From Armatimonadota bacterium (lineage in GTDB: Bacteria; Armatimonadota; Armatimonadia; Armatimonadales; Armatimonadaceae), in the NCBI GenBank assembly GCA_026392155.1, contig JAPLCP010000078.1, positions 59,941 through 123,940 of the forward strand: a DNA stretch of 64,000 bases, written 5' to 3'. The position numbers and the translations under genes were made by a program. The stretch's first letter is position 1. Each line of letters starts with the position of its first letter. The notes beneath the pieces are model-generated. The model was given only the letters and a program-made list of their open reading frames with translations. It did not search any database and was not told the origin of the DNA. Positions 46,833-48,449 of the stretch are shown here, one piece after another.

Positions 46833-46907
46833 CTACAAAGCAGCTTCCTCCCGGTTTGGGAAAAAGTAAAAGCTAAAATACCAAAAGCTATTGTTTGTGC
46901 GTGCCAT
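46833..46907 (-). CDS. Aromatic-amino-acid leader peptide MARTNNSFWYFSFYFFPNREEAAL
   Basis: 8 aromatic codons in 9 positions (5 Phe, 2 Tyr, 1 Trp) directly 5' of the terminator. Confidence 0.9.
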   Translation of the reverse strand: MARTNNSFWYFSFYFFPNREEAAL

Positions 46908-47000
46908 GTGTTGGGCTTACTGTATCATGCTCAGTATGGTTTTGCACGAGTCGGTGCATCGTGGAACCAGAATACTCTTTTTGTCGTCAGAATTAAAAAC

Positions 47001-48449
47001 ATGTCACTCTCGGAAATTCAGCCCAAGCGCCTTGCCCACACACTCTTCTTAGACTTTGTCGGCTACTCACGGCTCACCGCCGACTCACAGGCGGCTGTCC
47101 AAGTGGTGCTGCAAAACCTGGTCTATAATCTTCCTGCCTTTCAAGCGGCTCGCAACGACAGCCAGCTGATGGTGCGTAAGACCGGCGATGGAATGGCGGT
47201 CGTTTTCTTCCAAGACATAGAGTTCCCTCTTGCCGCTGCCGTCGCCTTGGATGAAGTGATCAAGCACCAGTCCTCAGGCCTCCGGGAGCAGGTAGGCGCA
47301 CCGTTCCGTCTGCGCATGGGGATTCACTCCGGCCCGGTTGTGATCGTGGACGAAGACGGCGATGGGATTATGGATGTGGCGGGCGAGGGCATCAATATCG
47401 CCCAGCGCGTCATGGACTGTGGCGATGAGGGGCATATTCTCGTCTCGGCTGCTGTCTTTAATGCCGTTGCCGAAAAAGAACACTGGAAGTCGCTTCTTCA
47501 CGATCTGGGGATTGTTCGGGTAAAGCACGACGAGCTGGTGCACCTCTACAACCTCACGGGGCAGCGACCCGATAGCACGATCATGGGCTTTGAGGGGCTC
47601 CCTCGTAAAGTCCACGAAGCGCGTGCTCGCATTCAGCAGCTTGTCGAACAAGAAAATAACCGAGAGCAGACCGAAAACCGTGCCACTCTCACCAACTACG
47701 CGCTCCGTGCCGCCTTGTTAGTGGGCGCTTTTGTGCTGGTCGGCAGCCTGCTTTTCCTGCTCTGGCGCAACAGTACCATCAATAGCGGTGAGGTTAAGCA
47801 CGTCGCCGAGGTCATCCGCAAGAACAAGCTCGCACAAGAAAATAAAAATAAAACAGCGCCTGCGGTCACTCTAGCAACCCCAGCTCCGACCAATCCGTCA
47901 GAGAGTGCCAGTGCGATCGTCCATGCCCGTGTCCCCAATGTCGTGGGGATGCAGCGGACGGATGCAGAGAAAGCCCTTGCAGGCTTTGGCTTGACCCTAA
48001 GCCTCTCCCCGCAGACCCCTGAGGTGGGGAACGCCACGGTTCCTGCAGGGAGTATCGTTAATCAGTCTCCGCCGCCGGGTGAGCAGAATGTCCGTGGGGG
48101 CGTTGTCTACGTCACTCTGGCCAAAGGCGCAGGCACCCCGGTAGCCCCCACGCCAGAGCCACCGCCGCAGAGTGCCTATACGGGAGTCCTCGTAGATGGG
48201 CGCAGCTTTACGCAGCTAGCCAATGCGCAGACCGCAGGGCTTTTCGGCCCCAACGACGCCCCGCTCTACTCGGCAGCGAGCATGACCAGTGACGAAGTTG
48301 AGGCCATTCAGCAAGCCGGGATCAATCCGCTTCGGCTCACCGCGATCGTGGCGGGCCCGAACGGGGTTGGTCTCTCAGCGGAGGACGTCGAAAAGCTCCG
48401 CGCCCTCCCCGAGACGATCCGCGCCAAGACCGTCATCTTGCGCCCCTAG
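47001..48449 (+). CDS. Class III nucleotide cyclase - TM - PASTA-domain protein
   Basis: LFLDFVGYS, RKTGDG, RLRMGIHSGPV, DVAGEGINIAQRV; one TM; RVPNVVGMQRTDAEKAL...GSIVNQSPPPG PASTA; start at ATG 47001. Confidence 0.85.
   Translation: MSLSEIQPKRLAHTLFLDFVGYSRLTADSQAAVQVVLQNLVYNLPAFQAARNDSQLMVRKTGDGMAVVFFQDIEFPLAAAVALDEVIKHQSSGLREQVGAPFRLRMGIHSGPVVIVDEDGDGIMDVAGEGINIAQRVMDCGDEGHILVSAAVFNAVAEKEHWKSLLHDLGIVRVKHDELVHLYNLTGQRPDSTIMGFEGLPRKVHEARARIQQLVEQENNREQTENRATLTNYALRAALLVGAFVLVGSLLFLLWRNSTINSGEVKHVAEVIRKNKLAQENKNKTAPAVTLATPAPTNPSESASAIVHARVPNVVGMQRTDAEKALAGFGLTLSLSPQTPEVGNATVPAGSIVNQSPPPGEQNVRGGVVYVTLAKGAGTPVAPTPEPPPQSAYTGVLVDGRSFTQLANAQTAGLFGPNDAPLYSAASMTSDEVEAIQQAGINPLRLTAIVAGPNGVGLSAEDVEKLRALPETIRAKTVILRP

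What the first reader, a model, noticed from the sequence alone, without database searches (positions are those of the whole stretch)
47001..48449. Adenylate-cyclase-like domain wired to an extracytoplasmic PASTA domain
The cytoplasmic class III cyclase keeps both metal Asp residues (FLDF, TGD), the ATP-selecting Lys (RKTGD) and Asp (MDVAG), and the N-x-x-x-R transition-state pair (NIAQR). A single TM follows, then a Pro/Thr linker, a PASTA repeat and a further C-terminal domain (YTGVLVDGR...GINPL). PASTA domains normally sit on PknB-type kinases or PBPs and bind muropeptides or lipid II. Inference: a receptor cyclase converting cell-wall status into cAMP, an architecture I do not recognise as characterised.
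Basis: partly seen in the sequence, partly recalled or inferred. Interest (0 to 1): 0.65.

Follow-up and report, generated by a model that had tools for sequence, protein, structure and literature searches.

The report
PASTA-domain receptor adenylate cyclase
This Armatimonas gene encodes a membrane protein with a probably active cAMP-making enzyme inside the cell and a cell-wall-binding (PASTA) module outside, an unstudied design that could let the bacterium report the state of its cell wall through cAMP.

Summary
ORF 47001-48449 (+) encodes a 482-aa protein. It has an N-terminal class III cyclase domain (Pfam 34.6 bits, cut-off 21.9; Foldseek TM up to 0.83 to solved cyclases). Then come one TM helix, a Pro/Thr linker and a PASTA domain (40.8 bits, cut-off 23.2). 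The last part is a well-folded 90-aa C-terminal domain whose only fold match is the "uncharacterized" D2 domain of Treponema Tp0624.

One correction: the canonical ATP-selecting position holds Arg59, not Lys60. It is Arg in 52 and Lys in 10 of 62 relatives. Both metal Asp, Asp125, Arg136, Arg105 and Lys175 are conserved or nearly so.

The architecture forms a family of about 60 sequence clusters, found only in Armatimonadota. In the 301 phylum genomes sampled it occurs only in the window's own family. It is nested in a huge family of "inverted" cyclases (cyclase-TM-periplasmic TPR/TolB).

A shorter PASTA-cyclase paralogue in the same genome sits directly upstream of a CRP-family regulator with an intact cNMP-binding cassette. 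The same pairing occurs in four genomes of two genera.

Best reading: a PknB-like receptor with the kinase replaced by an adenylate cyclase. Activity and ligand are untested. I found no paper on it, and databases annotate it generically. It is a new variant of a known kind, of moderate interest.

The parts
46901..46928 (+). Sigma-70-like promoter candidate (GTGCCA-16-TATCAT), about 70 nt upstream of the ATG
   Evidence: Consensus scan only, 9 of 12 matches. It overlaps the alternative GTG start at 46908, which argues for the ATG at 47001.
47001..48449 (+). Coding sequence of the 482-aa PASTA-cyclase (P0001), stop codon included
   Evidence: ORF list and translation. Homologues share this start. 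dN/dS is 0.13-0.15 against congeneric orthologues.
47028..47555 (+). Cytoplasmic class III nucleotidyl cyclase catalytic domain (residues 10-185)
   Evidence: Pfam PF00211, 34.6 bits against cut-off 21.9. PDB phmmer: 3et6 5e-9, 3mr7 4e-7. AF2 pLDDT above 90. Foldseek: 1wc1 E 3e-12, TM 0.83 to Ma1120.
47052..47054 (+). Asp18, first metal-binding Asp (LFLDFVGYS)
   Evidence: Aligned to the metal Asp of 3et6, 3mr7 and 5o5k. Present in 61 of 61 relatives.
47175..47189 (+). R59-K60-T-G-D63: Arg59 at the canonical substrate-selecting Lys/Glu position and Asp63, the second metal Asp
   Evidence: R59 aligns with K of 5o5k and 3mr7 and with E of 3et6. Position 59 is R in 52 and K in 10 relatives. Position 60 is variable. 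D63 is present in 62 of 62.
47313..47315 (+). Arg105 (FRLRMGIHSG), the phosphate-binding Arg of the RxGxHxG strand
   Evidence: Present in 62 of 62 relatives. The role is assigned from general knowledge of class III cyclases.
47373..47408 (+). D125-VAGEGI-N132-IAQ-R136: the second substrate-selecting residue (Asp) and the transition-state Asn/Arg pair
   Evidence: Aligned to C/D, N and R of 3et6 and 5o5k. D125 is D in 57 and E in 5. N132 is N in 40, I in 18, V in 3 and T in 1. R136 is present in 62 of 62.
47523..47525 (+). Lys175 (RVKH), at the position of the triphosphate-binding Lys
   Evidence: Present in 62 of 62 relatives.
47604..47696 (+). Polar juxtamembrane helix (residues 202-232) joining the cyclase to the membrane helix
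   Evidence: The AF2 model shows a continuous helix over residues 202-260. The sequence is poorly conserved and has no HAMP or other Pfam match.
47697..47765 (+). Single transmembrane helix (residues 233-255, YALRAALLVGAFVLVGSLLFLLW)
   Evidence: The only Kyte-Doolittle peak above 2.0. A hydrophobic block is conserved in all relatives.
47841..47909 (+). Pro/Thr/Ala-rich disordered extracytoplasmic linker (residues 281-303)
   Evidence: pLDDT below 50. Length and sequence vary among relatives.
47916..48128 (+). Extracytoplasmic PASTA domain (residues 306-376)
   Evidence: Pfam PF03793, 40.8 bits against cut-off 23.2. Local match to NCBIfam PknB_PASTA_kin. 27-29% identical to both PASTA repeats of the genome's own PknB-like kinase. 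pLDDT about 90.
48177..48446 (+). C-terminal extracytoplasmic domain of unknown function (residues 393-482, starts YTGVLVDGR), with a Tp0624-D2-like fold
   Evidence: No Pfam or NCBIfam match. AF2 pLDDT 93, eight strands and three helices. The only significant PDB fold match is 5jir (Tp0624), E 8.6e-4, TMq 0.67. A faint sequence match lies at the start of its D2 domain (domain limits from PMC5104382). Related domains end secreted hypothetical proteins of a sister family.

Best explanation
The gene encodes a single-pass membrane receptor cyclase.

Layout:
- A polar helix and one transmembrane helix follow.
- A flexible Pro/Thr linker then carries a PASTA domain and a second small domain (Tp0624-D2-like) into the periplasm.

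Proposed mechanism. Class III cyclases are active only as dimers whose two active sites are built across the interface. This protein has no HAMP domain or cyclase-transducer helix and has the same domain order as PknB-type kinases. The most likely mechanism is therefore the PknB one. The outside module binds a peptidoglycan-derived structure (lipid II, un-crosslinked strands or muropeptides). This concentrates or pairs the receptors, which brings two cyclase domains together and raises cAMP. cAMP would then be read by CRP-family regulators.

Shown here: the domains, topology logic, conservation of catalytic residues, lineage distribution, and the cyclase-CRP gene pairing of the paralogue.

Inferred: the product (cAMP), the ligand, and activation by dimerisation.
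For: Domains and fold:
- Pfam Guanylate_cyc and PASTA both score above their curated cut-offs.
- The AF2 model has pLDDT 85, and its cyclase part matches CyaC, Rv1900c, Ma1120 and others.

Catalytic residues over 62 PASTA-linked relatives:
- D18 in 61/61, D63 in 62/62, R105 in 62/62, R136 in 62/62, K175 in 62/62.
- Position 59 is always basic (R in 52, K in 10).
- Position 125 is always acidic (D in 57, E in 5).
- One subclade of the long form carries the textbook ATP pair K-D plus N-R.
- The cyclase domain is the most constrained part, with dN/dS about 0.05.

Cyclic-nucleotide context:
- The genome has a cyclic-nucleotide toolkit: five cyclase domains and three CRP-like proteins. Two of the three have an intact FGE...(P/E)RSA phosphate-binding cassette.
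- The short PASTA-cyclase paralogue P0121 is followed at the next base by a CRP-family gene (cNMP_binding 83.5 bits plus HTH_Crp_2).
- The same pairing occurs in two congeners and in another genus, where the CRP is only 49% identical.

PASTA context:
- In this genome PASTA occurs only in signalling proteins: the two cyclases and one PknB-like kinase.
- PASTA kinases are described as sensing peptidoglycan fragments (abstract of PMC7286690).

Topology: one hydrophobic segment, no signal peptide, and an ATP-dependent domain at the N terminus.
Against: - Nothing here is biochemical.
- Arg, not Lys, occupies the purine-selecting position. I found no characterised cyclase with an Arg-Asp pair.
- The Pfam cyclase score is modest (34.6 bits), so the domain is divergent.
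- The long form studied here has no conserved gene neighbourhood outside its own genus and no adjacent CRP.
- The cyclase-CRP pairing of the short form is absent from four of eight genomes checked.
- 22 of the 62 relatives, all lacking the canonical 88-89-residue C-terminal domain (three carry a divergent tail of about 100 residues), replace the transition-state Asn with Ile, Val or Thr. Active cyclases lacking that Asn do exist: Ma1120 (PMC4215837) and XC_0250 (PMC3770947).
- From general knowledge, not all PASTA domains bind muropeptides.
- The juxtamembrane helix is polar and poorly conserved, so it gives no evidence for a pre-formed coiled-coil dimer or for any specific transduction path.
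Confidence: 0.5

Rival explanations
1. The enzyme is a real receptor cyclase but does not make cAMP. Arg59 together with Asp125 would select GTP or another nucleotide, giving cGMP or a pyrimidine cyclic nucleotide.
For: The canonical Lys is replaced by Arg in 52 of 62 relatives. The wider parent family has still other residues at the two selecting positions (Leu/Ile and Asn), so specificity is plastic in this lineage. There is a weak match to Pycsar cyclase models at 21.5 bits. Bacterial class III enzymes with odd residues can be guanylate cyclases, for example XC_0250 (PMC3770947).
Against: Arg and Lys interchange within one orthologous clade, and the Lys members carry the textbook ATP signature K-D/N-R. 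An acidic residue at position 125 is the adenine-N6 acceptor in adenylate cyclases, whereas guanylate cyclases carry Glu at position 59 and Cys/Ser/Gly at 125 (general knowledge; 3et6 alignment). No Pycsar effector is adjacent. The paralogue's partner is a DNA-binding CRP, not a TIR or membrane effector.
Confidence: 0.15
2. PASTA and the C-terminal domain are not ligand sensors. They only anchor or localise the cyclase on the cell wall, for example at the septum or at growth zones. Activity would be constitutive or controlled from the cytoplasmic side.
For: There is no recognisable transducer (HAMP, S-helix, cyclase-transducer element) between the membrane helix and the cyclase. The juxtamembrane helix is polar and poorly conserved. 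The ectodomain evolves faster than the cyclase. From general knowledge, PASTA domains of several PBPs and kinases serve localisation.
Against: Localisation and activation are not exclusive. Clustering at a site would itself favour dimer formation in an enzyme that is active only as a dimer. The ectodomain is under purifying selection, and the extra C-terminal domain is kept throughout the long clade.
Confidence: 0.25
3. The cyclase-like domain is catalytically dead. It would serve as a nucleotide-binding or dimerisation scaffold, with the long and short paralogues possibly pairing with each other.
For: The domain is divergent and scores low in Pfam. The short paralogue lacks the transition-state Asn. 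Both paralogues coexist in all three genomes of the genus that were compared.
Against: Every catalytic position is retained in the long form and kept over deep divergence. dN/dS of the domain is about 0.05. No reciprocal loss of complementary residues, the mark of obligate heterodimers, is seen. Cyclases lacking the Asn can be active (PMC4215837).
Confidence: 0.07

Closest known systems
PASTA-domain Ser/Thr kinases (PknB of Mycobacterium tuberculosis, PrkC of Bacillus subtilis, StkP, Stk1)
   Same: The order of parts is the same: a cytoplasmic catalytic domain at the N terminus, a juxtamembrane linker, one membrane helix, then extracytoplasmic PASTA. The PASTA here gives a local match to NCBIfam PknB_PASTA_kin and is 27-29% identical to the PASTA repeats of the genome's own PknB-like kinase. 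The proposed activation by ligand-driven clustering or dimerisation is borrowed from these kinases.
   Different: The output domain is a class III cyclase, not a protein kinase. There is one PASTA repeat instead of two to four, plus an added Tp0624-D2-like domain. The organism has an outer membrane, so the module lies in a periplasm.
Membrane-bound bacterial class III adenylate cyclases (Rv1625c/Cya, CyaB of P. aeruginosa, CHASE2- and HAMP-linked cyclases)
   Same: The catalytic fold is the same (Foldseek matches to 5o5k, 3r5g and 4p2f), and so is the set of metal, transition-state and phosphate-binding residues. The enzyme is expected to work as a homodimer.
   Different: In those enzymes the sensor and membrane parts precede the cyclase and are coupled through a helical transducer. 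Here the cyclase comes first and the sensor last. The purine-selecting Lys is Arg.
Myxococcus xanthus Pkn2 type (kinase + cyclase-like domain + membrane helix), and the wide cyclase-TM-TPR/TolB family of Acidobacteriota and Verrucomicrobiota
   Same: These share the same cyclase subfamily (40-50% identity; shared motifs AHxLFxD, QRVMDCGDxGHIL, VKH) and the same 'cyclase before the membrane helix' order. The Pkn2 architecture is listed in PMC1262709.
   Different: Their outside parts are TPR or TolB-like beta-propellers, or a kinase is fused. Their substrate-selecting positions are Leu/Ile and Asn instead of Arg/Lys and Asp. None is characterised as far as I could find.
FimV-FimL-CyaB pathway of Pseudomonas aeruginosa
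   Same: It is a known case in which a peptidoglycan-binding protein (LysM in FimV) is tied to the control of a class III adenylate cyclase and a CRP-family regulator (Vfr).
   Different: It is a multi-protein pathway. The wall-binding module is LysM and lies on a separate scaffold protein, and the input is pilus or surface signalling. Here the wall-binding module and the cyclase are one polypeptide.
Treponema pallidum Tp0624 domain D2
   Same: It is the only solved structure with a fold like the C-terminal domain. It is periplasmic, and Tp0624 also carries an OmpA-like domain (PMC5104382).
   Different: Sequence similarity is negligible. D2 is 120 residues against about 90 here. The function of D2 is itself unknown.

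Membership tests
Class III nucleotidyl cyclase (Pfam PF00211) | Profile match above the curated threshold | tested here: met
   34.6 bits against cut-off 21.9, residues 14-176.
Class III nucleotidyl cyclase (Pfam PF00211) | [quoted passage not shown] | tested here: met
   AF2 model with pLDDT above 90 in the domain. Foldseek: 1wc1 E 3e-12; TM 0.73-0.83 to CyaC, Rv1900c and Ma1120.
Class III nucleotidyl cyclase (Pfam PF00211) | Two metal-binding Asp residues | tested here: met
   D18 and D63 are aligned to the metal Asp of solved cyclases and are invariant in relatives.
Class III nucleotidyl cyclase (Pfam PF00211) | Transition-state Asn and Arg (N-x-x-x-R), phosphate-binding Arg and Lys | tested here: met
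   N132, R136, R105 and K175 are present. R136, R105 and K175 occur in 62 of 62 relatives. N132 is kept in all long-form members.
Adenylate-specific class III cyclase | Lys and Asp (or Thr) at the two purine-selecting positions | tested here: inconclusive
   Asp125 is present. The Lys position holds Arg59 here and Lys in 10 of 62 relatives. The effect of Arg on specificity is unknown.
Class III nucleotidyl cyclase (Pfam PF00211) | Dimer with active sites at the interface; measurable cyclase activity | not testable with these tools
   No multimer prediction or assay was available.
PASTA domain (Pfam PF03793) | Profile match above threshold and the small alpha/beta PASTA fold, located outside the cytoplasm | tested here: met
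   40.8 bits against cut-off 23.2, residues 310-375. The model shows one helix and a beta-sheet with pLDDT about 90. The domain lies after the single membrane helix.
PASTA domain (Pfam PF03793) | Binding of beta-lactam, muropeptide or lipid II | not testable with these tools
   No sequence motif is diagnostic of binding. A binding assay is needed.
PASTA Ser/Thr kinase (NCBIfam NF033483 PknB_PASTA_kin) | Hanks-type kinase domain and a full-length match | tested here: not met
   Only a local PASTA match at 30 bits against cut-off 450. No Pkinase hit.
Pycsar anti-phage cyclase (PycC) | Strong PycC match and an adjacent cNMP-activated effector (TIR or membrane protein) | tested here: not met
   PycC scores 21.5 bits, explained by general cyclase homology. 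The neighbours are DAHP synthase and an RND pump.
Tp0624 D2-like domain | Two four-stranded sheets flanked by helices, with fold similarity to 5jir D2 | tested here: inconclusive
   There is a single Foldseek hit: E 8.6e-4, probability 1.00, TMq 0.67, rmsd 6.3. The model has eight strands and three helices. A faint HMM match lies at chain residues 143-153 of 5jir_B, which I take to be about Y198, the start of D2; this assumes the crystallised construct begins near native residue 56, which I did not check (PMC5104382). The aligned residues were not shown by the tool.

The most novel reading that the evidence does not exclude
PASTA-cyclases are a cell-wall-to-cAMP receptor class that works by ligand-driven dimerisation, the cyclase counterpart of PknB. 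Peptidoglycan precursors or fragments in the periplasm would pair the ectodomains, assemble the two-chain active site and switch on a CRP regulon. This would be the first single-polypeptide link between peptidoglycan status and cAMP. It would also be the first mechanistic handle on the very large, unstudied family of 'inverted' receptor cyclases (cyclase-TM-periplasmic domain) of soil Acidobacteriota and Verrucomicrobiota.
Probability: 0.3. Interest if true: 0.7.

Novelty: new variant of a known kind. Interest (0 to 1): 0.55.

Why it matters
Bacteria are known to report cell-wall status through PASTA kinases and two-component systems, not through cAMP. A one-protein PASTA-to-cyclase receptor would add a second-messenger route. 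It would also give a simple, testable model of how a class III cyclase placed before its membrane helix is switched. That model would apply to thousands of related, uncharacterised receptor cyclases in soil bacteria.

The protein also offers a compact chassis for engineering: an output easily read in E. coli cya strains, coupled to a wall-binding input. In addition it gives the orphan Tp0624-D2 fold a second context in an envelope protein.

Tried and rejected
1. Pycsar or other defence cyclase. Only weak generic matches were found, with no effector nearby. Rejected.

2. Conserved gene neighbourhood for the long form. Synteny (fucosidase, DAHP synthase, cyclase, RND pump) holds only within the genus. 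More distant orthologues have unrelated neighbours, so there is no partner gene.

3. Identity of the C-terminal domain by sequence. There were no hits in Pfam or NCBIfam. PDB profile hits were spurious ankyrin-like matches. The word-indexed search found only close relatives. A search seeded from the related secreted protein found only 'hypothetical protein' entries from Armatimonadota.

4. Literature on PASTA with a cyclase. Co-occurrences are bacterial two-hybrid uses of adenylate cyclase. Searches for an Arg at the substrate position and for the TolB/TPR cyclases gave nothing specific.

6. The GTG start at 46908. Rejected in favour of ATG 47001.

7. Architecture outside Armatimonadota. A scan of GTDB genomes returned PASTA-covering matches only from Armatimonadota.
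Full report
**1. What is there**

The window holds an ORF at 46908-48449 on the + strand. All 27 aligned homologues begin M-S/E-L-S/T-E at that point. The 93 nt upstream carry a sigma-70-like site at 46901-46928.

The product, P0001, has 482 residues. The last 17 nt of the gene overlap the end of a convergent 1449-aa RND pump / outer-membrane-factor fusion gene.

**2. Domains**

- Pfam gives Guanylate_cyc (residues 14-176, 34.6 bits, cut-off 21.9) and PASTA (residues 310-375, 40.8 bits, cut-off 23.2).
- NCBIfam gives only a local PASTA match to the PknB-type kinase model.
- phmmer against PDB sequences finds class III cyclases only, with 3et6 at 5e-9 and 3mr7 at 4e-7.
- An AlphaFold2 model built on 28 homologues has mean pLDDT 85. 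It shows:
  - a cyclase domain (residues 10-185);
  - one long helix (202-260) that includes the only hydrophobic segment (233-255);
  - a disordered Pro/Thr linker (281-303);
  - a PASTA domain (306-376);
  - a second short linker;
  - a compact C-terminal domain (393-482).
- Foldseek places the model among solved class III cyclases: CyaC 1wc1 at E 3e-12, and TM 0.73-0.83 to Rv1900c and Ma1120.

**3. Catalytic residues**

In the HMMER alignments to 3et6, 3mr7 and 5o5k, the residues fall as follows:
- D18 and D63 match the two metal Asp residues.
- D125 matches the second purine-selecting residue (Cys in the guanylate cyclase 3et6, Asp in the adenylate cyclase 5o5k).
- N132 and R136 match the transition-state pair.

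The first purine-selecting position lies four residues before the second metal Asp.

Over 62 PASTA-linked relatives:

| Position | Residues |
|---|---|
| 18 | D in 61/61 |
| 63 | D in 62/62 |
| 105 | R in 62/62 |
| 136 | R in 62/62 |
| 175 | K in 62/62 |
| 59 | R in 52, K in 10 |
| 60 | K/R/P/F/T (variable) |
| 125 | D in 57, E in 5 |
| 132 | N in 40, I in 18, V in 3, T in 1 |

All members with the canonical C-terminal domain keep N132. Lys at position 59 arises once, inside that long-form clade, and gives the textbook adenylate signature K-D/N-R.

Loss of the Asn is not proof of inactivity. Ma1120, an active adenylate cyclase, has Ala there (PMC4215837). The guanylate cyclase XC_0250 lacks both Asn and Arg (PMC3770947).

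Against two congeneric orthologues, the cyclase domain has dN/dS of about 0.05, PASTA 0.16-0.31 and the C-terminal domain 0.12-0.22. dS is near saturation, so the figures are rough.

**4. The C-terminal domain**

- It has no Pfam or NCBIfam match.
- Modelled alone, it folds with pLDDT 93 into eight strands and three helices.
- Its only significant PDB fold match is Treponema pallidum Tp0624 (5jir): E 8.6e-4, probability 1.00, TMq 0.67.
- A faint profile match places the YTGVLxDxR start at chain residues 143-153 of Tp0624. If the crystallised construct starts near native residue 56, which I did not check, this is about Y198, the start of domain D2.
- The authors describe D2 as a previously uncharacterised pseudo-beta-sandwich of two four-stranded sheets (PMC5104382).
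- A related domain (YTGILIDARGL...) ends secreted 360-440-aa proteins of a sister family of Armatimonadota. All of these are annotated as hypothetical.

Its function is unknown.

**5. Relatives and distribution**

The word-indexed search found about 45 clusters at 90% identity with both Pfam domains. The exhaustive representative search added some 20 more clusters at 50% identity. Public names are generic: 'adenylate/guanylate cyclase domain-containing protein [Armatimonas sp.]', 'PASTA domain-containing protein' and 'class 3 adenylate cyclase'.

Among 301 genomes of the phylum:
- the long form occurs in the window's genus (3 of 3 sampled) and in one other genus;
- the short form (no C-terminal domain, or a divergent one) occurs only in the same family.

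A scan of GTDB species genomes returned PASTA-covering matches only from Armatimonadota.

The cyclase domain itself belongs to a very large family: 6900 representatives at E up to 0.001. In this family the cyclase is N-terminal and is followed by a membrane helix and periplasmic TPR or TolB-like domains, or is fused to a Ser/Thr kinase. It is mostly found in Acidobacteriota and Verrucomicrobiota. That parent family has Leu/Ile and Asn at the two purine-selecting positions. The PASTA-linked clades are therefore the ones closest to a canonical adenylate signature.

In an unrooted tree, the long clade, the short clade and the outgroup form three groups.

**6. Functional context**

The genome (96.6% complete) has the following:
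- five class III cyclase domains;
- three CRP-like proteins, two of which have an intact FGE...RSA cNMP-phosphate cassette;
- PASTA in just three proteins: this one, a 433-aa paralogue (P0121) and a PknB-like kinase with two PASTA repeats.

The paralogue's stop codon is followed at the next base by the start of a CRP-family gene with cNMP_binding at 83.5 bits and HTH_Crp_2. The same cyclase-then-CRP arrangement is present in two congeners and in another genus, where the CRP is only 49% identical. It is absent from four other genomes that have a short form.

This is the best available evidence that PASTA-cyclases feed a cyclic-nucleotide/CRP circuit. It concerns the paralogue, not the gene in the window. 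The window gene has no conserved neighbours beyond its genus.

**7. Mechanism**

Three things can be read from the sequence and models:
- The order of parts is catalytic domain, polar linker helix, one membrane helix, flexible linker, PASTA. That is the order of PknB kinases and the reverse of characterised receptor cyclases, where sensor and membrane parts precede the cyclase and are coupled by HAMP or cyclase-transducer helices (general knowledge).
- No such transducer is detected.
- The juxtamembrane helix is polar and poorly conserved.

Class III cyclases need to dimerise to build their active sites. The simplest mechanism is therefore that the outside module controls proximity: binding to lipid II, nascent strands or muropeptides would cluster or pair receptors and assemble active dimers. 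This is inference.

The main rivals are:
- a different nucleotide product, because of Arg59;
- a pure anchoring or localisation role for the ectodomain;
- a catalytically silent scaffold.

**8. Comparison and novelty**

- The protein is a member of the class III cyclase superfamily; the defining features tested were met.
- It carries a bona fide PASTA domain.
- It is not a PASTA kinase and not a Pycsar cyclase.
- It works most like PknB with the output exchanged.

I found no paper describing the combination. M. xanthus Pkn2 (kinase + cyclase-like + membrane helix) is the only published relative of the parent family that I met (PMC1262709). I rate the protein a new variant of a known kind: a real, conserved, lineage-restricted receptor cyclase with an unusual input and an unusual polarity. 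It is already present in databases but unstudied.

**9. Limits**

- All evidence is computational.
- No multimer model could be made.
- Foldseek output does not show which residues of Tp0624 were aligned.

Noticed in passing
L001 5491-6792 (+) and 6793-7482 (+) (own genome, contig C151:13491-15482): A 433-aa short PASTA-cyclase paralogue (P0121; Ile in place of the transition-state Asn; low-complexity acidic tail) is followed with no gap by a 229-aa CRP-family regulator with an intact FGE...PRSA cassette. The same pairing is seen in G026, G193 and G226.
   Followed up: partly
Loci L046-L116 (Acidobacteriota, Verrucomicrobiota, Methylomirabilota and other MAGs); proteins P0047-P0120: There is a very large, apparently unstudied family of 'inverted' receptor cyclases. 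An N-terminal cyclase domain is followed by a membrane helix and then periplasmic TPR or TolB-like propellers, or is fused to a Ser/Thr kinase. Metal and transition-state residues are conserved, but Leu/Ile and Asn sit at the two purine-selecting positions, so the product is unclear.
   Followed up: partly
L035 1529-2764 (+); L036 1551-2672 (+): These are secreted 370-410-aa hypothetical proteins of a sister Armatimonadota family. They have DUF5666-like repeats and end in a domain related to the cyclase's C-terminal domain (motif YTGILIDARGL). There are over 100 clusters, all unnamed.
   Followed up: partly
L002 4124-6130 (-) (own genome, contig C83): This is the only PknB-like Ser/Thr kinase with PASTA repeats (two) in the genome. 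No penicillin-binding protein of this genome carries PASTA, so PASTA is used only in signalling proteins here.
   Followed up: partly
window 48433-48449: The cyclase gene and the convergent 1449-aa RND pump / outer-membrane-factor fusion gene overlap by 17 nt at their 3' ends. The same fusion gene (ACR_tran + OEP, 1451 aa) is the neighbour in a related metagenomic contig (L027).
   Followed up: no
window 47001-47560 (protein residues 13, 109, 139-145, 176, 181): Family-specific invariant residues lie outside the classical catalytic set: His13, His145, His176, His181, the motif QRVMDCGDxGHIL and Trp162. They are shared with the whole inverted-cyclase family and could mark a metal or regulatory site.
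   Followed up: no
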